From positions 1-16,651 of the forward strand of contig JAZDPL010000015.1 of NCBI GenBank assembly GCA_043797665.1: 16,651 nt of DNA, in the 5' to 3' direction. How positions within the stretch are numbered: position 1 is the stretch's first letter; each line of letters begins with the position of its first letter. The position numbers were made by a program, and so were the translations under genes. Shown here piece after piece: positions 570 through 16,651 of this stretch. The notes beneath the pieces were generated by a model. It worked only from the letters and a program-made list of their open reading frames with translations. It ran no database searches and had not been told where the DNA came from. Source of the stretch: Candidatus Omnitrophota bacterium. GTDB taxonomy: Bacteria; Ratteibacteria; UBA8468; MWAK01.

Positions 570-653
570 TGCGGAGGGAGAGAGTCGAACTCTCACAGCC
601 TCGCGGCCACCGGATTTTGAGTCCGGCGCGTCTGCCAGTTCCACCACTCCGGC
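570..653 (-). tRNA. tRNA-Leu (anticodon CAA), class II with long variable arm, CCA not encoded
   Basis: Reverse complement GCCGGAGTGGTGGAACTGGCAGACGCGCCGGACTCAAAATCCGGTGGCCGCGAGGCTGTGAGAGTTCGACTCTCTCCCTCCGCA. Anticodon stem CCGGA/TCCGG, T arm GAGAG-TTCGACT-CTCTC. The acceptor stem is imperfect. Confidence 0.93.
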
Positions 654-3850: not shown

Positions 3851-3913
3851 GTCATTCCTGCATGTTTTTAGCAGGAATCCACTGGATTCCCACTTACGAC
3901 ATGTGGGAATGAC
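3851..3913. repeat. Palindromic REP doublet, family A (GTCATTCC...GGAATCC / GGATTCC...GGAATGAC)
   Basis: GTCATTCCTGCATGTTTTTAGCAGGAATCC-ACT-GGATTCCCACTTACGACATGTGGGAATGAC. Confidence 0.88.
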
Positions 3914-3931: not shown

Positions 3932-4528
3932 CTATGGTCGTATTACCTTCGGTTTCGGACCGGTACAGTCATAGATGGCGGACGGCTTTCCGGAAGTCTT
4001 ACCACCGTCAATGACCAGGTCCGCGTTTAGTTTAAGACTCTCTGAAATCCCGGAGATTTCACCGGCCGGTTTTTCTCCGGCCCGGTTGGCGCTGGTTCCG
4101 ATGATGGGCCGGCCTACTTTTTTGAGCGCCGTCCGCAGAAAGGGATGGTCCGGAATTCTTAAACCGACCGTACCATTTTTAGATACCAAAGGAGACAGGG
4201 GCCTGCCCCTGCATGTTTTAGGCAGGGGTCTGCGTGATTTCAAGATGAGCGTAACCGGCCCGGGCCAGAACTTTTCCGCCATTTTTTTTGCCGACTCAGA
4301 AAAGTGCGCCAATCGTAAAGCGGTCTTTAAGTCCGCTACCAGAAGTGGAAACGGTTTGTCCGGTTTACGTCCCTTGAGTTCAAAAATTTTCTTTATCGTT
4401 TCCGGGGCGGAGAGAATACAGCCCAGTCCATAGACCGTATCGGTCGGAAAGATGACTACCTTGCCTGCCTTTAAATCTTCCACAAACTCGGTCAGAGCAA
4501 TTGGCTCGTTTACTTTCAAAGTCCGCAC
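3932..4528 (-). CDS. tsaC: Threonylcarbamoyl-AMP synthase (single-domain YrdC/TsaC, Sua5 family) carrying a 9-aa repeat-derived insert
   Basis: FPTDTVYGLG, KGR, FWPGPVTLIL, VGLRIPDH and GTSAN motifs. Confidence 0.93.
   Translation of the reverse strand: MRTLKVNEPIALTEFVEDLKAGKVVIFPTDTVYGLGCILSAPETIKKIFELKGRKPDKPFPLLVADLKTALRLAHFSESAKKMAEKFWPGPVTLILKSRRPLPKTCRGRPLSPLVSKNGTVGLRIPDHPFLRTALKKVGRPIIGTSANRAGEKPAGEISGISESLKLNADLVIDGGKTSGKPSAIYDCTGPKPKVIRP
4202..4228 (+). repeat. 27-bp intragenic hairpin element, copy 1 (in tsaC)
   Basis: CCTGCCCCTGCATGTTTTAGGCAGGGG, read antisense as PLPKTCRGR. Confidence 0.85.
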
Positions 4529-4535
4529 TAATTCA

Positions 4536-4588
4536 ATTATAATCTCTGCGGATGTTTTTTGACAAGCGCCAACGAATTCAATTATAAT
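4536..4588. promoter_or_regulatory. Overlapping divergent sigma70 promoters (tsaC and rplM)
   Basis: + strand: TTGACA 4559-4564, 18 bp, TATAAT 4583-4588. - strand: TTGTCA 4565-4560, 18 bp, TATAAT 4541-4536. Confidence 0.7.
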
Positions 4589-4608
4589 AATTGTTTACGA
4601 AAAAAGTT

Positions 4609-4638
4609 GTCATTCCGGCATGTTTGTGGCCGGAATCC
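4609..4638 (+). repeat. Family A REP, single unit, in the rplM leader
   Basis: GTCATTCCGGCATGTTTGTGGCCGGAATCC. Confidence 0.8.
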
Positions 4639-4667
4639 ATACGGTTACTTATTTAGGAGATTAAGAT

Positions 4668-5060
4668 ATGGAACGAAGTTGGTACTTAATCGATGCGGAA
4701 AAGCAGGTGTTAGGCAGGTTGGCGACCAGAATTGCCGGCCTTTTGATGGGGAAAGGCAAACTGGAGTATAAGCGAAATCAGGATTGCGGGGATTTTGTGG
4801 TGGTGATTAACGCCGGCAAGATAAGGGTGACCGGCAAAAAGTTGACGGACAAGATATACCGCAAACATACCGGATATTTAGGCGGCTTGAAGGAAATTAC
4901 CCTGAAGAACTTACTGGCAAAAAAGCCGGAAAAGGTGATTGAATTTGCGGTCCGGGGGATGTTGCCGAAGAATCGCTTAGCGGAGAAAATGTTCCTGAAG
5001 ATGAAGGTTTATGCCGGTGCCGAGCATCCCCACGCCAGCCAGAACCCAAAGGCTATATAG
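4668..5060 (+). CDS. rplM: 50S ribosomal protein uL13
   Basis: WYLIDAEKQVLGRLAT...DCGDFVVVINA...HTGYLGGLK...AVRGMLPKN...HPH.SQNP. AGGAG RBS. Confidence 0.97.
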   Translation: MERSWYLIDAEKQVLGRLATRIAGLLMGKGKLEYKRNQDCGDFVVVINAGKIRVTGKKLTDKIYRKHTGYLGGLKEITLKNLLAKKPEKVIEFAVRGMLPKNRLAEKMFLKMKVYAGAEHPHASQNPKAI

Positions 5061-5068
5061 GGAGAAAG

Positions 5069-6298
5069 ATGCCCAAGATTTACCTGCTTGACGTTACCAA
5101 CCGGGATGGAGTGCAGACTTCACGGTTGGGTCTGGCAAAACTCCAGAAGACTCTTATCAACGTCTTTCTCAATAGGATGGGGGTCTACCAGAGCGAGATG
5201 GGTTTTCCGGTGACCCGGCACGAAATCAATTATCTGAAAGCCAACCTTGCCCTGGCGAAGAAAGGGGTTCTTACTCCTATCATCCTCTCCGGATGGATGC
5301 GGGCGACCAAAGGCGACGTGGAGGAAGCGGTTAAAAATGTGCCCATTGAGTATATCAACATATCTATTTCCACTTCTGACCAGATGATTACGGGGAAATT
5401 CCTGGGCAAACTTACCCGCCAGGATGTGACCAAAAGTATGGTAGACGCATTAAAGACCGCCAGGTCTGCCGGGATAAAAACGGTTGGTGTCAATGCGGAA
5501 GACGCTTCCCGGACAGAACTGGATTACTTGGTGGAATTTGCTCTGGCAGCCAAAGAGAACGGTGCGGACCGCATTCGTTACTGCGACACCGTAGGTTGTG
5601 ACAGCCCCTGTACCATTTATGACCGGATTACCTATCTGGCGGAAAAGATAAAGATGCCTGTTGAACTCCATTGCCATAATGACTTAGGTATGGGCGTGGC
5701 GGTAAGTGTAATGGGTGCCAAGGCTGCGGTGGATGCCGGTGTTGACGGTTACATCAATACCACGGTCAACGGTATGGGCGAACGCTGCGGTAACGCGGAC
5801 CTGGTTTCGGTTATCATTGCCCTGAAGAAAGGCGAGGGTCTGTCGGGTAAATACGTTTTAGATGAGGCGGTGGACTTGAGGATGGCGTGGAAGTTAGCAA
5901 AATATGCTTCTTATGCTTTCGGAGTTCCCATTCCCATCAATCAGGTGGGCGTTGGCGCCAATGCGTTTGCCCACGAGTCCGGCATCCATGTAGACGGCGC
6001 GCTGAAAGATTACCGGAACTACGAACTCTATCATTATGAAGAATTGGGCCGGGGCGAGCCGGAGGTGATCGAGACCGGCCGGATGATTACCGTGGGTGAG
6101 TACAGCGGTATCAAAGGTTTCCGGAACGTTTACGGGAAGTTGGAGATTGAGTTTAAGAACGAGAAAGATGCCCGGGAAATTTTAGAGTTGGTCCGGTACG
6201 CCAATGTCCATACCCAGAAGCCCCTGGTTGAGGATGAACTTCTCTTTATTGCTCAGCATCCGGAAGAAGCCCGCCTTCTGATGACCATGAGTCCCTAG
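5069..6298 (+). CDS. DRE-TIM metallolyase of the LeuA/homocitrate synthase family lacking a regulatory domain; homocitrate or Re-citrate synthase-like
   Basis: DVTNRDGVQ, AEDASR, YCDTVG, ELHCHNDLG, NGMGERCGNA and FAHESGIH motifs; 409 aa. Confidence 0.85.
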   Translation: MPKIYLLDVTNRDGVQTSRLGLAKLQKTLINVFLNRMGVYQSEMGFPVTRHEINYLKANLALAKKGVLTPIILSGWMRATKGDVEEAVKNVPIEYINISISTSDQMITGKFLGKLTRQDVTKSMVDALKTARSAGIKTVGVNAEDASRTELDYLVEFALAAKENGADRIRYCDTVGCDSPCTIYDRITYLAEKIKMPVELHCHNDLGMGVAVSVMGAKAAVDAGVDGYINTTVNGMGERCGNADLVSVIIALKKGEGLSGKYVLDEAVDLRMAWKLAKYASYAFGVPIPINQVGVGANAFAHESGIHVDGALKDYRNYELYHYEELGRGEPEVIETGRMITVGEYSGIKGFRNVYGKLEIEFKNEKDAREILELVRYANVHTQKPLVEDELLFIAQHPEEARLLMTMSP

Positions 6299-6571
6299 GG
6301 GTTGTTAAACAATAAAGTTGACTATTTGCCAGAGGCGATTTTGGAGCGAGACAAGGAGCGAAGAAGATGGCGTACCCCCTGTGGTACGGAAGCGATGAGC
6401 GACGCAGTCGCAGCCCAAAAGCGGCCTGGCCCTTCGGGGAGTCCCATCTTTGGGTCATTGCGTCGTTGCTCCTCGGTTATGTGCCACAGTGGGCACAGAA
6501 CCTTCGTCGCGCCTTGCACTAACCTCAAATCCGGGACTCCAAATAGTCAACTTTATTGTTTAACAACCCCT
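6297..6571. mobile_element. MITE (275 bp) with perfect 32-bp terminal inverted repeats
   Basis: AGGGGTTGTTAAACAATAAAGTTGACTATTTG (6297-6328) is the exact reverse complement of 6540-6571. The interior is partly self-complementary and has no transposase. Confidence 0.88.
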
Positions 6572-6578
6572 TAACCTT

Positions 6579-7832
6579 ATGGGTCAAACGATTGCGGAAA
6601 AGATTTTAAGCGCCAAGAGCAATCAGAAAGTTACGGCCGGTGAAATCTGCCTGGCAAAAGTTGATTTTGCTTTTGCCCAGGATGGCACCGCACCTTTAGC
6701 GATAGAAGCCTTTAAGAATCTGGGCGGTGAGAAGGTGTTATTTCCGGAAAGGTCCGCCCTCTTTATCGACCACAGCGCACCCAGTCCCAATCTGGGCGTC
6801 TCCAACCTGCACCAGATGATGCGGCGGTTTGCCGCCGAACAGGGTGTCAGGCTCTACGAGGCGGGCAGCGGTGTCTGCCATATCCTAATTTCGGAAGAGG
6901 GTTTTGTCCGCTGTGGAGGTCTGCTGGTGGGTGCGGACAGCCATACACCGACCAGCGGTGCGCTCAACAATTTTGCCACCGGTGTTGGTTCCACCGATTT
7001 GGCGGCCGCACTCATTACCGGACAGTTGTGGTTTAAGGTCCCGGAGACGATAAGAATTACGCTTAATGGTAAATTGCGGGACAGGGTTTATGCCAAAGAC
7101 GCAGCGCTGTTTATGATAAAAGAGTTGACCGCCGGCGGTGCTAATTATAAGAGTTTAGAACCAACCGGTCCGGTGGTCTCAGGTTTTTCCATAGAGAGCC
7201 GGTTTACGATTGCGAACCTGGCGATGGAGGCGGGTGCCAAAACCTGCCTCTTTGAACCGGACGAAAAAACTTTTGCCTGGCTGGAAGAGCATAATGTGGA
7301 GAAGAAAGATGGTCAGCCGGTCTTCTCTGACCCGGATGCGGAGCGTAAAGAGATGGTCTTTGACCTTTCCGAATTGGAACCCCAGGTGTCCGCTCCCCAT
7401 CAGGTTGATAATGTCTATCCGGTAACCGGAAAAGCCGGAATAAAAATTGACCAGGCTTTTATTGGAACCTGTACCAACGGAAGGTTGGAGGACCTGCGTG
7501 TCGCCAACCAGATTATAGGCAAACGCAAGATTTACCCGAAATGCCGGCTGATAATTGCACCGGGCAGCCGCAGGATTCTGATGTCTGCCCTCAGGGAGGG
7601 GATTCTTCAGAACCTTATGGACTCTGGTGCGATACTGGTTACGCCGGGCTGTGGTCCCTGTGTGGGTACGCACAACGGCGTTCCGGCTGATGGCGAAAGG
7701 GTGCTCTCTACCGCCAACCGTAATTTCCGGGGCAGAATGGGTAATCCCGCCGCGGAGATTTATCTGGCATCACCGGCTACCGTGGCAGCCAGCGCGGTTG
7801 CCGGCGAAATTACCGACCCGCGGGAAATATAG
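6579..7832 (+). CDS. leuC: Aconitase-family large subunit (3-isopropylmalate dehydratase LeuC type 2 / homoaconitase HacA-like)
   Basis: GQTIAEKIL, QDGT, DH, GADSHT, IGTCTNGR, PGCGPC (three Fe-S Cys), STANRNF.GRMG and YLASP motifs. Substrate is uncertain. Confidence 0.85.
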   Translation: MGQTIAEKILSAKSNQKVTAGEICLAKVDFAFAQDGTAPLAIEAFKNLGGEKVLFPERSALFIDHSAPSPNLGVSNLHQMMRRFAAEQGVRLYEAGSGVCHILISEEGFVRCGGLLVGADSHTPTSGALNNFATGVGSTDLAAALITGQLWFKVPETIRITLNGKLRDRVYAKDAALFMIKELTAGGANYKSLEPTGPVVSGFSIESRFTIANLAMEAGAKTCLFEPDEKTFAWLEEHNVEKKDGQPVFSDPDAERKEMVFDLSELEPQVSAPHQVDNVYPVTGKAGIKIDQAFIGTCTNGRLEDLRVANQIIGKRKIYPKCRLIIAPGSRRILMSALREGILQNLMDSGAILVTPGCGPCVGTHNGVPADGERVLSTANRNFRGRMGNPAAEIYLASPATVAASAVAGEITDPREI

Positions 7833-7873
7833 TAGACAGTATATAGGGATAATAACTTCAGTGAATCACGTAT

Positions 7874-7947
7874 GTCATTCCGGCGTGCCTGTAGCCGGAA
7901 TCCAGTTGTTAAATACGAGATTCCCGCTAAGGACATGCGGGAATGAC
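7874..7947. repeat. Family A REP doublet
   Basis: GTCATTCCGGCGTGCCTGTAGCCGGAATCC...GATTCCCGCTAAGGACATGCGGGAATGAC. Confidence 0.85.
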
Positions 7948-7963
7948 AACGAGAGGGACAGAG

Positions 7964-9634
7964 ATGACCGGTGCGCAGATAGTAATTGAGGCTTTAAAGA
8001 AGGAAGGGGTGGAGTTTCTGCCGGGAATTCCCGGCGGTGTGGTCCTGCCTTTTTTTGATGCTTTTTACCACCAGAAAGATATCAGGTTTATTCTTGTCCG
8101 GCACGAACAGGCCGCGGCCCATATCGCCGATGGTTATGCCCGGGCGACCGGAAAGGTCGGTGTCTGTATCGCCACCAGCGGTCCGGGGGCTACCAACCTG
8201 GTTACCGGTTTAGCCACCGCCTATATGGATTCAATTCCTATGGTCGCGATAACCGGCCAGGCAGCCACCCCGTTAATCGGGAACGATGCCTTTCAGGAGG
8301 TTGATACCACCGGCATCACCCGTCCCATCACCAAAAATAATTATCTGGTAAAGGACGTCCGTAATTTAGCCGATACAATCAAAGAGGCTTTTTATGTTGC
8401 CTCTTCCGGCCGGCCGGGTCCGGTACTCATTGACCTGCCCAGCGATGTCCAGCGGGCTGAGGCCGAATTTTCTTATCCGGAGAAGATTGAGATGCGGACC
8501 TACAAGCCTATCCGGGAGGGCCATCCTTTGCAGATTAAAAAGGCAGCCGAACTGCTTTCTTCTTCCGTGCGTCCGGTAATCTTTGCCGGCGGGGGTGTGG
8601 CGCGGAGCCAGGCGAGTGCAGAACTGGTTGCCCTGGCACACAAGACCCAAATACCGGTGGTCCTTACCCTGATGGGATTGGGAACGTTTCCGGCCGACGA
8701 CCCGCTCTTTACCGGGATGGTGGGTATGCATGGGCCCAAGTATGCCAATTACACCATAATGGAGTCAGACCTAATTCTGGCGATTGGCGTCCGTTTTGAC
8801 GACCGGGTAACCGGAAAGGTAAATGCTTTTGCGCCCCACGCCAAGATTATCCATATAGATGTTGACCCGGCCTCCATCAGTAAAAATGTCCCGGTTGACG
8901 TGCCGATTGTGGGTGACGTGAAAGCGGTGCTTTCCCAGATGCTCCCTCTGATTACTCCACCCGACTGCGAAAAGTGGCGGGAAAGGATAGAATCCTGGAA
9001 GAATAAGTATCCGCTTACCTATCAGAAGGACGATAAACTCCGTCCCCAGTTTGTCATTGAAGAGGTTCACCGTCTTACCAAAGGTGAGGCAATCATCGCT
9101 ACCGAAGTAGGACAGAATCAGATGTGGGTCGCCCAGTTTTACCGGTTTAACCACCCGAATTCCCTGCTCAGTTCCGGAGGTTTGGGCACGATGGGTTATG
9201 GGTTCCCGGCCGCCATCGGCGCCAAATTGGGTTGCCCGGACCGCATCGTCTTTGACATCGCGGGTGACGGAAGTTTCCAGATGAACATCCAGGAGTTGAC
9301 GACCGCGACCATTAACCACATTCCGGTTAAGGTGGCGATTCTTAATAACGGTTACCTGGGTATGGTACGGCAGTGGCAGGAACTGTTCTACGGCAAACGG
9401 TACTCCGGGACCTACTTAGGTCCCTGCCCGGACTTTGCCCGGATTGCGGAAGCCTTTGGCGCCAAGGGTAAAAAGGTGACTAAACCGGAAGAGGTGGAGC
9501 CCGCTTTGAAAGAAGCGCTTAAGGAGAAGGAAGTTCCTTTTGTTCTTGACTTCCGGATTGAGCAGGAGGAGAACGTTTTTCCGATTGTGCCGGCCGGAGC
9601 ATCTCTGGACGAAATGATTGCCGGTCTGGCGTGA
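7964..9634 (+). CDS. ilvB: Acetolactate synthase large subunit, biosynthetic type
   Basis: MTGAQIV, RHEQAAAH.ADGYAR, TSGPGATN, FDDRVTG, GLGTMG and the ThDP motif GDGSFQMN...NNGYLGMVRQWQ. Confidence 0.96.
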   Translation: MTGAQIVIEALKKEGVEFLPGIPGGVVLPFFDAFYHQKDIRFILVRHEQAAAHIADGYARATGKVGVCIATSGPGATNLVTGLATAYMDSIPMVAITGQAATPLIGNDAFQEVDTTGITRPITKNNYLVKDVRNLADTIKEAFYVASSGRPGPVLIDLPSDVQRAEAEFSYPEKIEMRTYKPIREGHPLQIKKAAELLSSSVRPVIFAGGGVARSQASAELVALAHKTQIPVVLTLMGLGTFPADDPLFTGMVGMHGPKYANYTIMESDLILAIGVRFDDRVTGKVNAFAPHAKIIHIDVDPASISKNVPVDVPIVGDVKAVLSQMLPLITPPDCEKWRERIESWKNKYPLTYQKDDKLRPQFVIEEVHRLTKGEAIIATEVGQNQMWVAQFYRFNHPNSLLSSGGLGTMGYGFPAAIGAKLGCPDRIVFDIAGDGSFQMNIQELTTATINHIPVKVAILNNGYLGMVRQWQELFYGKRYSGTYLGPCPDFARIAEAFGAKGKKVTKPEEVEPALKEALKEKEVPFVLDFRIEQEENVFPIVPAGASLDEMIAGLA

Positions 9635-9637
9635 TGA

Positions 9638-9681
9638 AATCCCCCTCAATCCCCCTTTTGCAAAAGGGGAGAAGGGGGATT
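9638..9681. repeat. C/G-run palindrome (family D) between ilvB and ilvN
   Basis: AATCCCCCTCAATCCCCCTTTTGCAAAAGGGGAGAAGGGGGATT. Confidence 0.7.
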
Positions 9682-9689
9682 AGAGGGTT

Positions 9690-10166
9690 ATGGAAGAGCA
9701 TTTAGTCACTCTGACGGTGGAGAACCGGTTTGGAATGTTAGCCCGGATAGCCGGTCTTTTTTCTGCCCGCGGTTACAACATCAATAGTCTGGTGGTGGCA
9801 CCGACCGAAGATTCCGTGGTAAGCCGGATGGTTCTTACGGTTACCGGTGATGAGCGGATTATTGAACAAATCATCAAGCAACTGAACAAACTGATTGGCG
9901 TCATCAAAGTGGTTGATTTATGCGAAGGGAAATACCTGGAACGGGAGTTGCTTCTGACCAAGGTGAGCCTTAGTAACCAGAACCGTTTTGAGGTTCTGCA
10001 TTTAACCGAACTTTTTGGCGGGAAGGTGTCTGACCTTTCCAAAAAGGAGTTGACCGTGGAACTGGTCGGTGAAAGCCAGAAGGTGGATGGATTTCTGGAA
10101 CTGATGCGTTCTTACGGTGTGAAAGAAATGGTGCGCACCGGCAAGGTCGCCCTCAGCCGGGAATAA
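9690..10166 (+). CDS. ilvN: Acetolactate synthase small (regulatory) subunit
   Basis: ACT domain [36 protein letters not shown] and EMVRTG; lies between ilvB and ilvC. Confidence 0.96.
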
Positions 10167-10185
10167 CCATACATAAGTTAAAGAT

Positions 10186-10273
10186 GTCATTCCTGTATGT
10201 AGTAAACAGGAATCCAGACGTTGTCCCTGCATGTTTTAGGCAGGGATTCCCGCTTGAAACATGCGGGAATGAC
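10186..10273. repeat. Family A REP doublet with a nested 27-bp-element-like hairpin (10220-10246)
   Basis: GTCATTCCTGTATGTAGTAAACAGGAATCC-AGAC-GTTGTCCCTGCATGTTTTAGGCAGGGA-TTCCCGCTTGAAACATGCGGGAATGAC. Confidence 0.85.
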
Positions 10274-10288
10274 AAAATGGGAGGAGAG

Positions 10289-11287
10289 ATGGCGAGGATA
10301 TTTTACGATAAGGATGCGGATTTAAAGGTTGTGAAGAGCAAAAAGGTGGCGATTATCGGCTACGGAATTCAGGGCCGGGCGCACAGCCTGAACCTGCGGG
10401 ATTCCGGAGTTAAGGTTGTGGCAGCAGAACTGCCGGGAACCCCAAATTACGAAAAGGCGACCGAGGACGGGTTTAAGCCAATTTCCGCGAAAGAGGCAAC
10501 TTCTGTTGCGGATATTATTATGATGCTGGTTCAGGATAATCTTCAGCCGGATGTCTATCGGTCTGAGGTTCTGCCCGGCTTGAAAAAAGGTAAGGCTTTA
10601 GGTTTTGCCCACGGTTTCTCCATCGTCTTCCACCAGATTGTTCCACCCAAAGATGTAGACGTCTTTATGGTGGCGCCAAAGGGTCCCGGCGGTCTGGTCC
10701 GGGATATGTTTGTCCAGGGCAAAGGCGTGCCCTGTCTGGTAGCGGTGGAGGAGGAGTTTACCGGACAGGCTTTGAAGATAGCCCTCTCTTACGCCAAAGC
10801 GATCGGCGGCAGCAGGTCCGGTATTATTGAAACGACCTTTAAAGAAGAGACCGAGACCGACCTTTTTGGAGAACAGACCGTATTGTGCGGTGGGGTGTCC
10901 GCGCTCATCAAAGCCGGCTTTGAAACGCTGGTGGAGGCAGGATACCAGCCGGAGGTTGCTTACTACGAGACCTGCCACGAACTGAAGTTAATCGTAGACT
11001 TGATTAACGAACGGGGCATCACCGGCATGCGCAAAGGGGTCAGTGACACTGCAGAATACGGGGACATAACCCGTGGTCCCCGGGTGATTGACCAGCATGT
11101 AAAGGACCAGATGCGCAAAATACTGACTGAGATTCAGACCGGCGAGTTTGCCCGGGAATGGATTTTGGAGAATAAGGTAGGACGGCCGGTCTATCATGCC
11201 GTAGGTAAAAAGGACGAAGTCCATCAGATTGAAATTGTGGGCAAGAAACTGCGGGGAATGATGGCCTGGTTGAAGAAGGGGGATTAG
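10289..11287 (+). CDS. ilvC: Ketol-acid reductoisomerase (class I)
   Basis: [46 protein letters not shown] and SDTAEYGD motifs. GGGAGGAG RBS before ATG 10289. Confidence 0.97.
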
Positions 11288-11301
11288 AAAAGAGGTGGGG
11301 G

Positions 11302-11904
11302 GTGATGCGGTTATTCTTCAGTATCGCGGTTCCGGAAAGTATTGGCCGGGAGATTGCCGCCGAACAGTCAAAATCCTGCCCCGGCATGCCTAAAGCCGGG
11401 GTTAACGAACCTTCTCTTCATTGGGTCACTCCGGAGAACCAGCACTTTACCCTCCGGTTTCTAGGTGATGTGGAGGAAGCCAGACACAGTCTGTTGATTA
11501 ACGCAGGTCAAAAGGCGGCAGAAAAACATAGTCCATTTTCAGTACAGATTTCTGATTCAGGTTTCTTTCCCGGGAAGGGCGACCCCCGGGTCTTCTGGAT
11601 TGGGGTGACAGAGGGAGCCGATAGTCTGACCGTTTTATCCCGGGTTTTGTCAGATGTTCTGAAAGAAGCCGGTTTCCCTCCGGAAGAGAGGCCCTTTATA
11701 CCCCATCTTACCATAGCCCGGATTAAACAAAAACTTCCGGAAGAGAGACTGCAGAGGTTGGTGGCTGCCTGGAAAGAGAAAGTTTTCGTTCCTTTTACGG
11801 TGACGGAATTCTTTCTGATGGAGTCAAAACTACTTCCGGCCGGTCTGATTTACCGGAAAATAGAAGCATTTCCCCTGTTATCATGTCATTCCCGCATGCC
11901 CTAA
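11302..11904 (+). CDS. thpR: RNA 2',3'-cyclic phosphodiesterase (2H family, LigT/ThpR) with a 9-aa repeat-derived insert
   Basis: MRLFFSI start, two HxT motifs ([15 protein letters not shown]) and PRVFW; lies upstream of recA. The start may be ATG 11305. Confidence 0.92.
11375..11401 (+). repeat. 27-bp intragenic hairpin element, copy 2 (in thpR)
   Basis: CCTGCCCCGGCATGCCTAAAGCCGGGG. Confidence 0.8.
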
Positions 11905-11914
11905 GCGGGAATCT
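11885..11914 (+). repeat. Family A REP single unit overlapping the thpR stop codon
   Basis: GTCATTCCCGCATGCCCTAAGCGGGAATCT. Confidence 0.8.
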
Positions 11915-11926
11915 ATGGAGGTATTT

Positions 11927-12931
11927 ATGGATGAGAAAACTAAAGGTGGTTTAGCCGAAGCGATAAAAGAGATTGAAAAGACGTTCGGCAAAGGTGCGAT
12001 TATGCGATTAGGGGAGCGTGTCCACGAAAAGATTGCGGTAATTTCTACCGGGGCTTTAACCCTGGACTATGCGTTAGGTGTAGGTGGTATTCCCCGGGGC
12101 AGGGTTAGCGAAATCTTTGGCCCGGAATCTTCCGGAAAGACCACCTTAGCCCTCCATATTGTTGCGGAAGCCCAGAGGACGGGTGGCCAGGCGGCCTTTA
12201 TTGACGCCGAGCATGCCCTGGACCCGGACTATGCCAAAAAATTAGGGGTGAATACCGAAGAATTACTTCTCTCCCAGCCTGACTCCGGAGAGCAGGCGCT
12301 GGAGATTGCGGACCGGCTGATTCGGAGTAACGAGATTGATGTGGTGGTAATCGATTCCGTGGCGGCCCTGGTTCCCCGGGCAGAATTGGAAGGTGCGATG
12401 GGTGACAGCGTGATGGGTCTGCAGGCACGGTTGATGAGTCAGGCTTTAAGAAAACTGACCGGTGTCATTAACCGCACCAAGACCTCAGCCATTTTCCTTA
12501 ACCAGTTGCGCGAAAAGATCGGCGTTTTCTTCGGAAATCCGGAGACCACCCCCGGCGGCCGGGCGCTTAAGTTCTACACCAGCGTTCGTCTTGATATCCG
12601 GAGAATCGGTGCCATTGAGGGCGAAAAAAATACCAAAGGCGACAAAAACCTGATCGGTAACCATACCCGGGTAAAAGTAGTCAAAAATAAAGTAGCCCCT
12701 CCGTTCAAAGAGGCGCTCTTTGACATCTACTATAACGAAGGAATTTCAAAAGAGAACTGCATTCTGGACCTGGGACTGGAAAATAAATTTTTAGAGAAGA
12801 AAGGCAATTCCTTATACTACGGCACCCAGAATATCGGGGTGGGCCGGGACCAGGCGCGCGCCTACCTGAAAGAAAATCCGGAAGTAAGGAATAAAATCGA
12901 AGCCGATTTGAGGGCCCAACTATTCACATGA
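11927..12931 (+). CDS. recA: Recombinase A
   Basis: [10 protein letters not shown], Walker [41 protein letters not shown] and [19 protein letters not shown] before ATG 11927. Confidence 0.99.
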
Positions 12932-13011
12932 GTAGCGGTGCGATTTATCGCACCTGTAGGGCAAGGCTTTAGCCTTGCAAAAAATTGTAGGGGTCGGATT
13001 TATCCGACCCG
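12932..13011 (+). repeat. Tandem cluster of three GTAG-type REPs
   Basis: GTAGCGGTGCGATTTATCGCACC (12932), GTAGGGCAAGGCTTTAGCCTTGC (12956) and GTAGGGGTCGGATTTATCCGACCCG (12987). Confidence 0.85.
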
Positions 13012-13039
13012 AAAAAGTAGCCTGCCTCAGGAGGTTTTT

Positions 13040-14491
13040 ATGGACAAAAAGCGGATTGGCTGGAGAATCGGTTTAGCGATTTTAGCGGTGGCGGTCTTGT
13101 CTTTCTGGGGAGGCAAGGCCTTAGCCCAGAAACAGTCTGAAAAAAGCAAAGGCTCTGTTCCTCTTACCCTAAGCCCGGAGGTTACTTCTTTAGAAGAGGC
13201 GTTTATCCGGGTGGCCGAAACGGTAAAGCCGGCGGTGGTTAACATCAGTACCACCCAGAAGGTAGCGATGCGCAGTCCGTTCGAGGACTTTTTTGACGAC
13301 CCGTTCTTCAAAAGGTTCTTTGGCGATAACCAGCCGGAACGTCCCCGCGAGTACCTTCAGCAGTCTTTGGGAAGCGGAGTGATTGTTTCCGCTGACGGGT
13401 ATATTCTCACCAATAATCATGTGGTAAAAGACGCGGCGGAAGTTAAAGTTAAACTTCTTGACGGCCGGGAGTTGAAGGCAAAGGTTAAGGGCCAGGATTC
13501 CAAGACCGATTTGGCTCTTCTGAAGATAGATGCAGACAACCTGCCCTACGCGGTCTTCGGGGACTCTGCGCAAATTAAGGTCGGTCAGTCGGTAATGGCG
13601 ATCGGTAACCCCTTTGGCCTGGAGGGTACGGTTACGGTGGGTGTCGTCAGCGCCAAAGGAAGACATCTGGGAATGAACCCGATTGAGAGTTTTATTCAGA
13701 CCGACGCTTCCATCAATCCCGGTAACAGCGGCGGTCCTCTGGTTACTTTGCGGGGAGAGGTAATCGGTATCAATACCGCAATCGTAGCCAGCGGGCAGGG
13801 AATCGGGTTTGCCATACCTTCAAATATGGCGCGCAACGTCTTTGAGCAAATTCAGACCACCGGTAAAGTAGTACGGGGCTGGTTGGGCGTTTCCGTTCAG
13901 CCCATTGACCCGGAGATGGCAAAACAGTTCGGATTAAAGGAGACGGCCGGTGTTCTGGTTGCCAACGTCTTCGAGAAAACACCCGCGGAGAAGGCCGGTT
14001 TGAAGCCGGGTGATATAATTACCGGTGTAGATGATACTCCGGTTCAGACCACCGATGAACTGCAGAACAAGATTGGCAGTATTAAACCCGGCCAGACCGT
14101 TACCCTGACGGTCATCCGCGACAATAAACAGATATCAATTAAGGTCCAGTTAAGTGAACAGCCGGCCAGGTTGACCGAAGAGGGTTTACCCTCCGGCGAA
14201 GAGAAAGAATGGCGGGGGATTAAGGTCACCGAGGTAACTCCGGAGATGGCAAAAGAAATAGGGCTTCCTTTCGCAATCGGCGTGATTGTTATCGAAGTCA
14301 GTCCTGAGAGCCCGGCTGCCGGGAAGATAATGCCCAAAAGTGTGCTTGTTGAGGTTAACCGGCAAGCCATAAATAACCTTGCCGAATTTTCCCAGGTTGT
14401 TGAGTCTATATCTGACGAGAGCCCGGCGATGGTCCGGGTTTACATCCAGCGCGGATATTTCTACTTCATCATCCCCGGCGTCAGTAAATAG
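13040..14491 (+). CDS. degP: HtrA/DegP/DegQ serine protease with signal peptide and two PDZ domains
   Basis: AGGAGG RBS, N-terminal signal-like segment, catalytic triad motifs TNNHVV / DLALL / INPGNSGGPL, and RGWLGV PDZ entry. Confidence 0.93.
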   Translation: MDKKRIGWRIGLAILAVAVLSFWGGKALAQKQSEKSKGSVPLTLSPEVTSLEEAFIRVAETVKPAVVNISTTQKVAMRSPFEDFFDDPFFKRFFGDNQPERPREYLQQSLGSGVIVSADGYILTNNHVVKDAAEVKVKLLDGRELKAKVKGQDSKTDLALLKIDADNLPYAVFGDSAQIKVGQSVMAIGNPFGLEGTVTVGVVSAKGRHLGMNPIESFIQTDASINPGNSGGPLVTLRGEVIGINTAIVASGQGIGFAIPSNMARNVFEQIQTTGKVVRGWLGVSVQPIDPEMAKQFGLKETAGVLVANVFEKTPAEKAGLKPGDIITGVDDTPVQTTDELQNKIGSIKPGQTVTLTVIRDNKQISIKVQLSEQPARLTEEGLPSGEEKEWRGIKVTEVTPEMAKEIGLPFAIGVIVIEVSPESPAAGKIMPKSVLVEVNRQAINNLAEFSQVVESISDESPAMVRVYIQRGYFYFIIPGVSK

Positions 14492-14494
14492 GTT

Positions 14495-14586
14495 GTCATT
14501 CTGAGCGCAGCGAAGAATCTAATCTTTGAGATTCTTCACGTTGTTCAGAATGACAGATAGGTGGTAGCCGCAGGCTTCAGCCTGCG
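14495..14586. repeat. Family B REP doublet (14495-14554) plus GTAG REP (14564-14586) between convergent genes
   Basis: GTCATTCTGAGCGCAGCGAAGAATCT...GAGATTCTTC...TTCAGAATGAC, then GTAGCCGCAGGCTTCAGCCTGCG. Confidence 0.85.
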
Positions 14587-14587
14587 T

Positions 14588-15220
14588 TTAAAACTCAATC
14601 TGGTTCCTTAACCTTACGCACCGGTAAAGATTGATTGCTTCATGCATTGTCTGGAGGGTATTTTTCAGTACCAGTTTTATCCCCACCGCGTAGACCGTAT
14701 CGCCACCTGAAGCCAGGACAGTACCTTCGGGATTTTTGTAGTAATAAAAGTTAGTGTCGGCTGATATAGACTCCCGGAATACTTCCAACCGTTTATCACT
14801 TGCCCATCCTGGTTTCAGGTCAAAACCACTGTTATTGATGGGAGGAATAATTTTTGCATACCCGATAGAACCATTCCCGGCGCCGGAGATGTAATAATAT
14901 GTAATGTTTAAGTCTCCATTTTTACTTTGAAAAATTAAGGTATCAGGAGTAGTGTTAGCATTTAAAGTAAAAGGTTTTGCGCAGATCAGCCCTTCCTCCC
15001 GATTATTACCCGGTCCGTAAACGATAGTATTCATAAGGTACATCCCAAAATTCGTGGCGTCACCGCCCCCGCGCACCAACTTATGGATGGTGGTCGCCCG
15101 GCCAAAGATAATCGCTAAAAGGGAGAAGATAAAAACCATTATCGCGGATGCGGTCAGCATCTCCACCAGCGTAAACCCCTGCTTAAAACATGCAGGGGCA
15201 GGCCCCCCTCTGTCATTCAT
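14588..15220 (-). CDS. Type IV minor pilin / pseudopilin (PilW/GspJ-like position) with N-methylation motif
   Basis: Likely start ATG 15220 (MNDRGG...KQG|FTLVEML followed by a hydrophobic helix), with Glu at +5. Confidence 0.82.
   Translation of the reverse strand: MNDRGGPAPACFKQGFTLVEMLTASAIMVFIFSLLAIIFGRATTIHKLVRGGGDATNFGMYLMNTIVYGPGNNREEGLICAKPFTLNANTTPDTLIFQSKNGDLNITYYYISGAGNGSIGYAKIIPPINNSGFDLKPGWASDKRLEVFRESISADTNFYYYKNPEGTVLASGGDTVYAVGIKLVLKNTLQTMHEAINLYRCVRLRNQIEF
15176..15202 (-). repeat. 27-bp intragenic hairpin element, copy 3 (in a prepilin leader)
   Basis: Reverse complement CCTGCCCCTGCATGTTTTAAGCAGGGG, one mismatch to copy 1; encodes PAPACFKQG. Confidence 0.85.
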
Positions 15221-15259
15221 CGGTTTTCCCTGTCTGCTATTATACTGTCTGTTGAAATG

Positions 15260-15358
15260 GTAGTCGCAGGCTTTAGCCTGCGTGATGTCGTTGCGAGCGA
15301 CCAAAGTAGTCGCAGGCTTTAGCCTGCGTTTAAAACGCAACCTAAAGGTTGCGACTAC
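15260..15358. repeat. GTAG REP cluster: a single unit plus an inverted pair (REPIN/BIME-like)
   Basis: GTAGTCGCAGGCTTTAGCCTGCG at 15260 and 15306 (identical), and inverted CGCAACCTAAAGGTTGCGACTAC at 15336-15358. Confidence 0.88.
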
Positions 15359-15359
15359 C

Positions 15360-15938
15360 TTAATAGTATCCATTCCTTGTTTTATACGTCATTGTCTGCA
15401 GAATCGATCTGCTCCCCTTTTTTACCGTCACCGTAATCTGAAACAGGTTTCGGTACCCCAACATAGAATCAGCGTTGGTTGAATCGTAATATTCAGTAGT
15501 ACCAGTAACAGTACCGACTATACTTCTATTAGGCACCCCGTCTGTTGTTATGCTGGGGTCATAACCCCAAATCTTGGTGTCATAAGTATAGGTAGTATTA
15601 GATAAAGTTAAACTCCCACTGTTAGTGGAGTTTGTAAGGTCGCCGTAATAACTGGTGGGCGGAAACCGCTGGTCCCGCACCTTATCCATCGCGTACTGGC
15701 TTACCATTACCGCATTGGCGATGTCAAAGGCATCTCCGCGGCTTCCGGTATAGGCGGTCATCTTACTCATAATGACCAGAGTAGCCGCCACCGCTATCGT
15801 GGTCACCACCACCGCGAATACCACTTCAATCAGCGTATACCCCTGCCTCCTGTCATTCTGAGCGATAGCGAAGAATCCCGTTTTCAAGCGAGATCCTTCG
15901 GCATAAAACGCCTCAGGATGACAGACTTTGTCTGTCAC
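15360..15938 (-). CDS. Type IV minor pilin / pseudopilin (PilV/GspI-like position) with a repeat-expanded leader
   Basis: RRQG|YTLIEVVFAVVV hydrophobic helix. Probable GTG start at 15938 overlapping the upstream TGA; ATG 15950 and 15959 are alternatives. Confidence 0.8.
   Translation of the reverse strand: MTDKVCHPEAFYAEGSRLKTGFFAIAQNDRRQGYTLIEVVFAVVVTTIAVAATLVIMSKMTAYTGSRGDAFDIANAVMVSQYAMDKVRDQRFPPTSYYGDLTNSTNSGSLTLSNTTYTYDTKIWGYDPSITTDGVPNRSIVGTVTGTTEYYDSTNADSMLGYRNLFQITVTVKKGSRSILQTMTYKTRNGYY
15852..15922. repeat. Family B REP doublet inside the prepilin leader
   Basis: GTCATTCTGAGCGATAGCGAAGAATC...GATCCTTCGGCATAAAACGCCTCAGGATGAC. Confidence 0.87.
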
Positions 15939-16651
15939 TTCAGTCCCCATACTCTCCATACCGGCACGTATACCCTTCTGCCGTCGGAAAACCCCGGATA
16001 AAAATCACCGCTGGGGTTAGTGTTCTGGTATATAGAGTTATCAAAAGTTAGTTTACCGCCGAGAAAATCAACCACACCTGTGGCCCGGTTAGCCGGGTCG
16101 ATGACGGTTCCACCGGCGACCAGGAGTCCGGAAATGGTGTCGGTCGCAGTCAAAGTATTAGCCAAAGTAATGGTGGCGGTGTTGGATGAGTTCCCTCCGC
16201 TTCCGCAGTAGATTCCACCGGTGACATCGGTAAGTGCAGTATTGACCGTAACCGAAGCATTGCCACTGGAGGAATAGGCAACCACCGCCGGTCGTGGTTT
16301 GCCGTTGTAATCGGGCTGGAAGTCAGCGCTGATAGTTACAGTGGTGTTGCCGGAACCCAAAGCGAAGGCAGTTATTGCCGCCCGCTGTTCTGAGGTATCA
16401 GTACTAAGGGTAAATGGTGAAGTTGGAGGTTTTAGTGGCACAGAAATAGTAACGATTGCGTCTGTGGTTCCAGAAGAAGAGACCACTAAAGCCGAATCGC
16501 TGTTGGTGGCATCAATGGTTACCGCATTATCCCGCAACTCTATTTCTGAACCCGAGGCAACCCCTCCGTAGATAGTGCCGCCCCGTATGGTAACCTTGCC
16601 GTTTGCAATCATCCCGGTGGGTGTACCTACCTGCCCCACCGTATTGCCATT
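15935..16651 (-). CDS. C-terminal part of a Thr/Ser/Gly-rich, beta-rich protein of the pilin cluster (PilX-like by position); start lies beyond the window
   Basis: The frame is open to the window edge, ends in YVPVWRVWGLK*, and overlaps the probable start of the downstream pilin. Function is inferred from context only. Confidence 0.6.
   Translation of the reverse strand, partial: NGNTVGQVGTPTGMIANGKVTIRGGTIYGGVASGSEIELRDNAVTIDATNSDSALVVSSSGTTDAIVTISVPLKPPTSPFTLSTDTSEQRAAITAFALGSGNTTVTISADFQPDYNGKPRPAVVAYSSSGNASVTVNTALTDVTGGIYCGSGGNSSNTATITLANTLTATDTISGLLVAGGTVIDPANRATGVVDFLGGKLTFDNSIYQNTNPSGDFYPGFSDGRRVYVPVWRVWGLK

What the first reader, a model, noticed from the sequence alone, without database searches (positions are those of the whole stretch)
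4202..15202. A 27-bp hairpin element inserted in frame into three unrelated genes (tsaC, thpR, a prepilin)
Seen: three 27-nt copies, at 4202-4228 (CCTGCCCCTGCATGTTTTAGGCAGGGG), 15202-15176 (one mismatch) and 11375-11401 (CCTGCCCCGGCATGCCTAAAGCCGGGG). Each has a CCTG foot, a 7-bp stem and a 9-nt loop starting ATG, and each is followed by T. The thpR copy has a compensatory T-A to G-C stem change, so the structure is conserved. The copies are read in different frames or orientations ([28 protein letters not shown]) with no stop. Deleting 27 nt gives natural-looking sequence: [24 protein letters not shown] and MNDRGG|FTLVE. Known precedent: Rickettsia palindromic elements insert in frame into genes but are much longer. 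Inference: this is a minimal, frame-preserving mobile element that colonises protein loops, including in tsaC, which is essential in many bacteria. Removal at the RNA or translation level is a more speculative alternative.
Basis: partly seen in the sequence, partly recalled or inferred. Interest (0 to 1): 0.9.

Follow-up and report, generated by a model that had tools for sequence, protein, structure and literature searches.

The report
Tiny 27-base jumping DNA hairpin
A 27-base DNA hairpin has copied itself dozens of times in this bacterium, mostly into other repeats but also, without breaking the reading frame, into working genes; such tiny mobile repeats are known, but this family appears undescribed and its mover is unknown.

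Summary
The three copies are real and are true insertions: orthologues of tsaC, thpR and the prepilin lack them. The genome holds 66 copies of fixed build: 4-nt foot, 7-bp covarying stem, 9-nt loop. 27 lie in frame in genes; most others nest inside other hairpin repeats. A congener differs by whole units, and the 27-mer occurs in other phyla and in viral contigs. Free copies follow sequence resembling the element's own 3' end; 6 of 78 prepilin cleavage sites carry one. One sense frame usually holds a stop and no such stop interrupts a gene, so the insert is translated, not removed; in-frame sites are partly survivors of selection. No dedicated mover was found; an Ssn-like nuclease and a RAYT are candidates. 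In-gene hairpin repeats are published (RPE, intragenic REPs; SDRs recalled); this family fails the REP, SRM and MITE tests and I found no description. The scan noted similar tiny hairpin families in this and other genomes; a look-up with this sequence found none.

The parts
4202..4228 (+). 27-nt CCTG-foot hairpin copy, antisense inside tsaC; read as PLPKTCRGR (TsaC residues 101-109)
   Evidence: low-confidence loop (pLDDT 59) in an otherwise confident model
4196..4201 (+). target-side CAGGGG directly 5' of the tsaC copy, identical to the element's own last six bases
3932..4528 (-). tsaC (threonylcarbamoyl-AMP synthase), the only match in this assembly, frame intact
11375..11401 (+). 27-nt copy inside thpR, read in the sense frame that normally holds a stop; its loop variant avoids the stop
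11302..11904 (+). thpR (RNA 2',3'-cyclic phosphodiesterase), frame intact
15176..15202 (-). 27-nt copy exactly at the prepilin cleavage site; supplies ...KQG before F, so it lies in the leader that would be cut off
14588..15220 (-). prepilin-like gene (likely start MNDRGG); family orthologues lack the element and have a G-run before TT at the site
10220..10246 (+). fourth, altered copy (foot GTTG) between two GTCA repeats upstream of ilvC; probably not translated (inference)
10186..10273 (.). pair of GTCA-type (CGTC/SRM class) repeats with the same 4+7+9+7 build and loop sequences as the element; others at 3851-3879, 7919-7947, 11885-11913

Best explanation
A non-autonomous, 27-nt mobile DNA hairpin (4-nt unpaired foot CCTG/CATG/CTTG, 7-bp stem, 9-nt loop) that inserts as a whole unit, without target duplication, at a purine^(mostly T) step. 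SHOWN: fixed length, covarying stem, filled/empty sites, wide spread, two kinds of target: (a) loops or 3' loop edges of other hairpin repeats and of itself; (b) free sites that end in a G-run resembling the element's own 3' end, which makes the Gly codon at prepilin cleavage sites a hot spot. SHOWN indirectly: in genes the insert is kept and read through; 27 = 9 codons and most frames are open, so inserts in loops, leaders and tails survive, while those with a stop or in critical places are purged. INFERRED: it moves as folded single-stranded DNA, using in trans an enzyme that recognises a hairpin plus its 5' foot (the logic of RAYT/REP and Ssn/SRM pairs); the best candidates in this genome are the small Ssn-like GIY-YIG nucleases (my estimate 35%), a Y1 HUH transposase/RAYT (30%), or an unidentified enzyme or host repair synthesis (35%). 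It has no function for the host proteins beyond being tolerated.
For: Length: 47 perfect-stem copies have a 9-nt loop, 3 have other lengths (8, 8, 11), against 0.33 at 9 nt in Markov controls; profile scan 79 hits at score >=18 against 0 in controls; 66 core copies in 44 distinct flank contexts. Stem covaries in a set found without enforcing pairing: 63 distinct sequences, pair 5/27 p=4e-7, 11/21 p=4e-4, 9/23 p=0.01 (sequences are related, so p overstates). Empty sites: TsaC segment 39 aa here against 30 aa in 5 of 5 family orthologues; ThpR 9-column gap in 4 of 5 full-length family orthologues, 7 in the fifth; a DNA contig about 90% identical is 27 letters shorter over 11312-11873 (record 18; gap place not printed); prepilin orthologues in 3 of 3 family genomes with a full match are empty. 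Congener G001: one extra exact 27-nt unit with a different loop in a prepilin, a 27-nt net insert in secA and a 42-nt one in metG where G000 is empty. Targets: base -1 is G in 35 and A in 8 of 44, base +1 is T in 37 of 44; 13 of 18 hand-picked free coding sites have GGG at -3..-1 (list) against 1.5% background; 6 of 6 filled prepilin sites have GGG before the element against 10 of 72 empty ones; 15 copies in GTAG-repeat loops are all in one orientation in the A variant (221 empty), none in 135 G-variant loops; 34 of 91 distinct junctions in other genomes sit at a >=6-bp hairpin against 5% of controls. No flanking direct repeat longer than 1 nt in 66 of 66. Read-through: stop in sense frame 1 in 36 of 39 non-coding copies; only 2 of 26 coding copies with an assigned frame use it and both lack the stop; 0 of 66 copies put a stop between coding-like flanks. 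Spread: at least 109 stretches in GTDB contigs of several phyla, 82 and 115 copies in two distant genomes, 4 stretches in 3 viral contigs.
Against: No mover identified: no gene bracketed by free copies in G000 or in 16 regions of three other genomes (output partly cut). The RAYT-like gene is flanked by GTAG repeats and the Ssn-like genes by GTCA hairpins, not by this element; 0 of 66 copies fit the SRM motif; G062 (26 copies) shows no clear Ssn-like gene and G026 (1 copy) none. Junctions are not always clean: metG +42 nt, a prepilin site +39 nt, secA with diverged flanks, +28 nt or T-to-G at base -1 in nested sites. The thpR site itself (AAAAT^T) does not fit the G-run target. Many identical copies travel as passengers of their host repeat (7 identical composites), so 66 copies are fewer than 66 events. 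Gene calls are my own rough ones; the frame test is partly circular and small (p=0.026). No protein-level evidence.
Confidence: 0.75

Rival explanations
1. It is simply a foot variant of the genome's GTCA (CGTC/SRM-class) repeats, moved by the same Ssn-linked process, and so a member of a described REP family.
For: Same 4+7+9+7 build and the same loop sequences as 153-157 GTCA repeats; intermediate feet exist; all 7 relatives with the element also have 9-nt-loop GTCA repeats; in G001, G061 and G065 copies sit in the hairpins beside the Ssn-like gene.
Against: 0 of 66 match the SRM motif while 100 GTCA repeats do; no GTC tag and no C tail, which SsnA needs (PMC11893778, section 8 read); 4 of 5 distant carriers have no 9-nt-loop GTCA repeat; it inserts into GTCA repeats and is in genes far more often (27 of 66) than NTS (2%, PMC11893778). 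The 9-nt-loop GTCA repeats may instead be hybrids that took their core from this element (inference).
Confidence: 0.25
2. No enzyme of its own: copies spread by template switching or gene conversion between similar hairpins, primed at G-rich microhomology.
For: Free targets resemble the element's 3' end; T-to-G change at base -1; a 24-nt slippage array derived from it in one gene; head-to-tail tandems.
Against: Exact 5' foot and exact length at 44 distinct contexts; orientation-specific entry into GTAG loops that share only one purine with it; exact suffix match between flank and element end is 0-1 nt in 51 of 66; near-identical sequence across phyla and in viral contigs.
Confidence: 0.15
3. 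The 27 nt are removed at RNA or translation level (mini-intron or bypass).
For: Stable hairpin of conserved structure inside genes that are probably essential.
Against: Both orientations and all six frames are used; stop-bearing versions never interrupt a gene and the two copies in the stop-prone frame lack the stop; an RNA-library contig identical over 15003-15232 keeps the prepilin copy (weak: only 30 letters on one side, DNA may be in the library); no Rfam match at these sites.
Confidence: 0.03
4. The inserts were selected for a function (terminator, mRNA structure or peptide tag).
For: The tsaC copy is kept in a relative at 88% identity; coaX and tilS copies are shared with G001.
Against: Six unrelated peptide readings; presence/absence differs within the genus; depleted in coding DNA (27 of 66 against about 90% coding).
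Confidence: 0.05

Closest known systems
GTAG- and CGTC-tagged REPs, including intragenic REPs and Rickettsia RPE-4/RPE-6 (Di Nocera et al. 2013, PMC3733652; abstract, parts 1-2 of 8 and passages read; figures and supplements not seen)
   Same: 20-40-nt hairpin with a 4-nt unpaired 5' tag; copies inside ORFs, incl. tRNA synthetases; some REP families sit inside other palindromes; CGTC REPs lack a known transposase.
   Different: Tag is CCTG/CATG/CTTG, not GTAG or CGTC; loop fixed at 9 nt (CGTC loops 4-5); no 3' tail; mostly single, not dimers; parasitises both REP classes; prefers targets like its own end.
Small dispersed repeats (SDR1-8) of Nostocaceae (Elhai et al. 2008; paper not held; details recalled; only citing passages read in PMC4390886 and PMC13756078)
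   Same: 21-27-nt structured repeats; SDR5 (21 nt) inserts precisely at a defined site; mover unknown.
   Different: Different sequence and hosts; SDR5 targets HIP1; this family spans several phyla and viral contigs. Sequence comparison with SDRs could not be made.
NTS/SRM repeats and Ssn GIY-YIG nucleases (Chenal et al. 2025, PMC11893778; abstract, introduction, sections 8 and 12 and passages read)
   Same: About 28-nt oriented ssDNA hairpins with a 5' foot; shared inner stem; Ssn-like genes present in this genome, flanked by SRM-type repeats that can carry the element.
   Different: 0 of 66 copies fit the SRM motif; SsnA is a nuclease with no shown strand transfer; NTS are rarely in genes (2%).
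Rickettsia palindromic element RPE-1 (as reviewed in PMC10969869 and PMC3184786, passages read)
   Same: In-frame insertion into unrelated, working genes at tolerant positions.
   Different: About 105-150 bp with one conserved peptide; here 27 nt, six readings.
MITEs (PMC3184786, passages read)
   Same: Non-autonomous, non-coding, filled/empty sites.
   Different: No terminal inverted repeats reaching both ends, no target duplication, far shorter.

Membership tests
GTAG/CGTC-tagged REP | 20-40-nt stem-loop, multicopy | tested here: met
   27 nt, 66 copies, covarying stem
GTAG/CGTC-tagged REP | unpaired 5' tag GTAG or CGTC/TGTC/CCTC | tested here: not met
   foot is CCTG, CATG or CTTG
GTAG/CGTC-tagged REP | cognate RAYT gene flanked by the repeat (GTAG class) | tested here: not met
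   RAYT-like gene (NF047646, 63 bits, below cut-off 80) is flanked by GTAG repeats; nearest copy 15.7 kb; assembly 86% complete
NTS/SRM (Ssn substrate) | match to the published degenerate SRM motif | tested here: not met
   0 of 66; 100 GTCA repeats match
NTS/SRM (Ssn substrate) | flanks an ssn gene | tested here: inconclusive
   beside the Ssn-like gene in 3 of 6 genomes examined (G001, G061, G065), always inside the loop of another hairpin; not in G000, G062, G063
NTS/SRM (Ssn substrate) | bound and cut as ssDNA by Ssn | not testable with these tools
   needs a biochemical assay
MITE | terminal inverted repeats at both ends | tested here: not met
   4-nt unpaired foot on one side only
MITE | target-site duplication | tested here: not met
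   flanking direct repeat 0 nt in 61 and 1 nt in 5 of 66
RPE-like coding repeat (behaviour) | in-frame inserts in unrelated intact genes, absent from orthologues | tested here: met
RPE-like coding repeat (behaviour) | retained in mRNA and protein | tested here: inconclusive
   indirect only: stop avoidance, one RNA-library contig
SDR (Nostocaceae) | 21-27 nt, structured, precise insertion at specific sites (recalled) | tested here: met
SDR (Nostocaceae) | sequence kinship to SDR1-8 | not testable with these tools
   paper not held
self-splicing or protein-spliced intron | tolerates stops or frameshifts; sense orientation only | tested here: not met
   both orientations; no stop-interrupted gene; no Rfam match

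The most novel reading that the evidence does not exclude
The unit moves as a covalently closed 27-nt single-stranded dumbbell (7-bp stem capped by the 9-nt loop and by the 4-nt foot closed into a second loop) and is integrated or copied at sites that mimic its own circle junction (G-run target) or at exposed loops of other hairpins, by a borrowed Ssn-type nuclease or Y1 transposase. It would then be a cross-phylum, phage-carried parasite of REP systems near the lower size limit for mobile DNA, and the first defined substrate linking Ssn enzymes to insertion. The circle folds in silico (-3.9 kcal/mol), and self-like targets, head-to-tail tandems and base -1 changes fit it, but no circle was observed and run-on junctions are rare (3 of 76 contexts).
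Probability: 0.2. Interest if true: 0.8.

Novelty: new variant of a known kind. Interest (0 to 1): 0.5.

Why it matters
How repeats under 40 bp (CGTC REPs, SDRs) move is still open (PMC3733652 states that CGTC REPs lack a dedicated transposase; PMC13756078 that SDR5's function is unknown). This family gives sharp ends, filled/empty pairs, a target rule and two candidate enzymes in one genome, so the question becomes testable with oligonucleotides. It also shows a concrete route by which 9-residue inserts enter loops of housekeeping proteins (TsaC, TilS, ProS, MetRS, SecA, Tmk) and how an insertion can rebuild the site it lands in (the KQG|F prepilin cleavage site). In-frame hairpin repeats as such are not new.

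Tried and rejected
Mover search: Y1_Tnp and GIY-YIG families in G000 and five carriers, GIY-YIG in five more; pairs of close copies in G000 and 16 regions of G061/G063/G065 held ordinary genes, none a nuclease or transposase as far as the printed part showed. Hairpin targets for free coding sites: rejected, mean best stem 2.9 against 2.9 in controls. Target-site duplication: rejected. Base -1 being a copy of the element's last base: match 0.70 against 0.57 permuted, with 8 counter-examples among A-ending copies; not convincing. Single-sequence structure prediction failed (pLDDT 33.5); the 44-sequence alignment worked. Sequencing runs: all shares were small (at most 0.13), so no habitat claim; laid contigs showed no listed joint at the tsaC or prepilin copy, and tables were cut. 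The p-value printed used 14 of 18 by mistake (the list gives 13) and is not used. One search's covariation used hand-picked copies, so one search is cited instead. Literature: searches found no description of this family (listings only for most papers; one search's seven hits were not opened); the library lacks most subscription papers, Elhai 2008 among them, and the figures and supplements of PMC3733652 and PMC11893778 were not seen and may list related repeats. Look-up of earlier scan notes by this sequence: nothing.
Full report
Observation. The host frames are intact: TsaC and ThpR score above their NCBIfam cut-offs; the third gene is prepilin-like by motif and orthologues. A fourth, altered copy lies at 10220-10246.

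The family. In the 2.69-Mb assembly (86% complete) a structure scan found 47 perfect-stem copies with a 9-nt loop and 3 with other loop lengths, against 0.33 at 9 nt in Markov controls. A profile scan gave 79 hits at score 18 or more and none in controls; 66 have the core foot and stem, in 44 distinct flank contexts. The stem covaries in 63 distinct sequences from other genomes that were found without enforcing pairing. The genome is rich in other hairpin repeats; its 153-157 GTCA repeats have the same 4+7+9+7 build and loop sequences, and 100 of them fit the published SRM motif whereas 0 of 66 copies of the element do.

It is an insertion. The TsaC segment from WPG to RIP is 39 residues here and in a relative at 88% identity (two identical records), 30 in 5 of 5 family orthologues and 30-34 in all other in-frame matches listed. 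In a confident model (mean pLDDT 93) the insert, residues 101-109, is the one uncertain loop (59), between two strands. ThpR orthologues show a 9-column gap in 4 of 5 full-length family members and 7 in the fifth; a DNA contig about 90% identical is 27 letters shorter across thpR, though the gap's place was not printed. The prepilin's orthologues in three family genomes are empty and have a G-run followed by TT at the site. The one congener, G001, has 31 exact-pattern copies; 6 of the other 59 relatives have 1-4 and the rest none. G001 shares the coaX and tilS copies, has an extra exact 27-nt unit with a different loop in front of a shared prepilin copy, carries copies in secA (+27 nt, diverged flanks) and metG (+42 nt) where G000 is empty, and lacks 39 nt including the element at another prepilin. 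So movement is recent on the scale of the genus, and junctions are mostly but not always clean.

Where it lands. With my own rough gene calls (coding fraction 0.90), 27 of 66 copies lie in frame in genes, among them xerC-like, proS, ispG, trpE, tmk, coaX, tilS (twice), moeA and six prepilins. An automatic label called 47 nested in other repeats and 19 free; 16 of the 19 free ones are in genes. Base -1 is a purine in 43 of 44 contexts and base +1 is T in 37. There is no target duplication. At 18 hand-picked free coding sites (15 of the 16 automatic ones, one tandem-array copy left out, three re-labelled) the six bases upstream read C-A/C-G-G-G-G by majority, the element's own 3' end; 13 of 18 have GGG against 1.5% background, and these sites are not hairpins. 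Six of 78 prepilin-like cleavage sites carry the element exactly before the first residue of the mature pilin; all six have GGG upstream against 10 of 72 empty ones. The element ends in codons for K/R-Q-G and so rebuilds the cleavage site, and is presumably cut off with the leader (inference from known prepilin processing). Nested copies enter GTAG-repeat loops at one position and in one orientation (15 of 15; none in 135 loops of the G variant). At several nested sites the net gain is 28 nt, or base -1 is G where all empty hosts have T: the 5' junction can slip by one base.

Translated, not removed. All six frames are used. One sense frame has a stop in 36 of 39 non-coding copies; only 2 of 26 coding copies with an assigned frame use it, thpR being one, and both have loop variants without the stop (small and partly circular). 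The non-circular test agrees: none of 66 copies places a stop between coding-like flanks. An RNA-library contig identical to 15003-15232 keeps the prepilin copy, a weak hint only. Rfam finds nothing at the copies. Frame preservation is thus a product of the 27-nt length plus selection.

Spread. An exact-pattern scan of GTDB contigs stopped at 109 stretches, 80 fetched, with titles naming Planctomycetota, Latescibacterota, Nitrospirota, delta- and gammaproteobacteria, Burkholderiales and Elusimicrobiota; three pair poorly and may be chance, and a few come from the window's own lineage. Two distant genomes hold 82 and 115 copies, largely as passengers of their own host repeats. 34 of 91 distinct junctions there lie at a hairpin of 6 bp or more, against 5% of controls. 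Four stretches in three viral contigs hold free copies, a possible route between phyla (inference).

Mover. G000 has a RAYT-like gene flanked by GTAG repeats and two 96-98-residue GIY-YIG genes flanked by GTCA hairpins, which I call Ssn-like from size, Pfam hit and context; the cd10448 assignment was not tested. In G001, G061 and G065 the hairpins beside the Ssn-like gene carry the element in their loops, which shows proximity, not cognacy. G062, with 26 copies, shows no clear Ssn-like gene. No gene bracketed by free copies was found. I commit to movement as folded single-stranded DNA by an enzyme borrowed in trans, because an oriented hairpin with a conserved 5' foot, no target duplication and a liking for hairpin loops is the known logic of RAYT/REP and Ssn/SRM pairs; which enzyme is open. 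The boldest reading, a closed 27-nt dumbbell intermediate, fits the self-like target and the tandems but has no direct support.

Comparison. Short REPs inside ORFs, including RPE-4 and RPE-6, and REPs inside other palindromes are published (PMC3733652). SsnA and its 28-nt NTS substrate are described, with NTS rarely in genes (PMC11893778). RPE-1 is about 150 bp (PMC10969869). SDRs of 21-27 nt are recalled; only the 21-nt SDR5 and its precise insertion were confirmed through citing papers. The element works like these but fails the defining tests for GTAG/CGTC REP, SRM and MITE. Nine searches found no description, within a library that lacks most subscription papers. Earlier scan notes describe many tiny nested or in-frame hairpin families, three in this genome; these are unchecked, and I cannot exclude that one (e1-6988505) overlaps this family. 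They label the host as Ratteibacteria or Omnitrophota, which I did not test.

Verdict. Real, well supported as a tiny mobile hairpin; an apparently undescribed family of a known kind, with an unusually clear target rule and an unknown mover. Interest 0.5.

Noticed in passing
window 6297-6571: 275-bp non-coding element with perfect 32-bp terminal inverted repeats (MITE-like) between an HMGL-like synthase gene and the next gene; its end sequence has 29 matches (up to 4 mismatches) in the genome.
   Followed up: partly
G000 C22:27400-27546 (L215): A 24-nt unit derived from the element is repeated five times before a full copy, in frame, giving a (PSSTQGQA)n linker: the element can seed a coding tandem repeat.
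   Followed up: no
G000 C89:54040-54100 (L227): A copy inserted in the loop of another copy, in frame inside an alpha-mannosidase-like gene that holds a third copy at 54441.
   Followed up: partly
window 14588-15959 and L315, L317: Prepilin leaders are a general sink for repeats: many leaders in G000 and in relatives end in peptides read from GTCA and other hairpins.
   Followed up: no
G000 genome-wide, e.g. L076:2105-2130: Another small hairpin family (core CCCCAATCTGACATTGGGG), 13 copies, at least two inside ORFs.
   Followed up: partly
L008 (G013 Sua5): An 8-residue insert near the C-terminal part of the YrdC domain, absent from its congener L007; possibly another mini-element.
   Followed up: no
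window 570-653: tRNA gene on the minus strand (Rfam RF00005).
   Followed up: no
G000 and relatives: GTCA repeats with a 9-nt loop occur in 16 of 61 genomes of this class but in only 1 of 5 distant carriers; they may be hybrids of SRM repeats and this element.
   Followed up: partly
L062 end (G001:C130): The congener's contig breaks at the foot of the thpR copy, so such repeats may cause assembly breaks and be undercounted.
   Followed up: no
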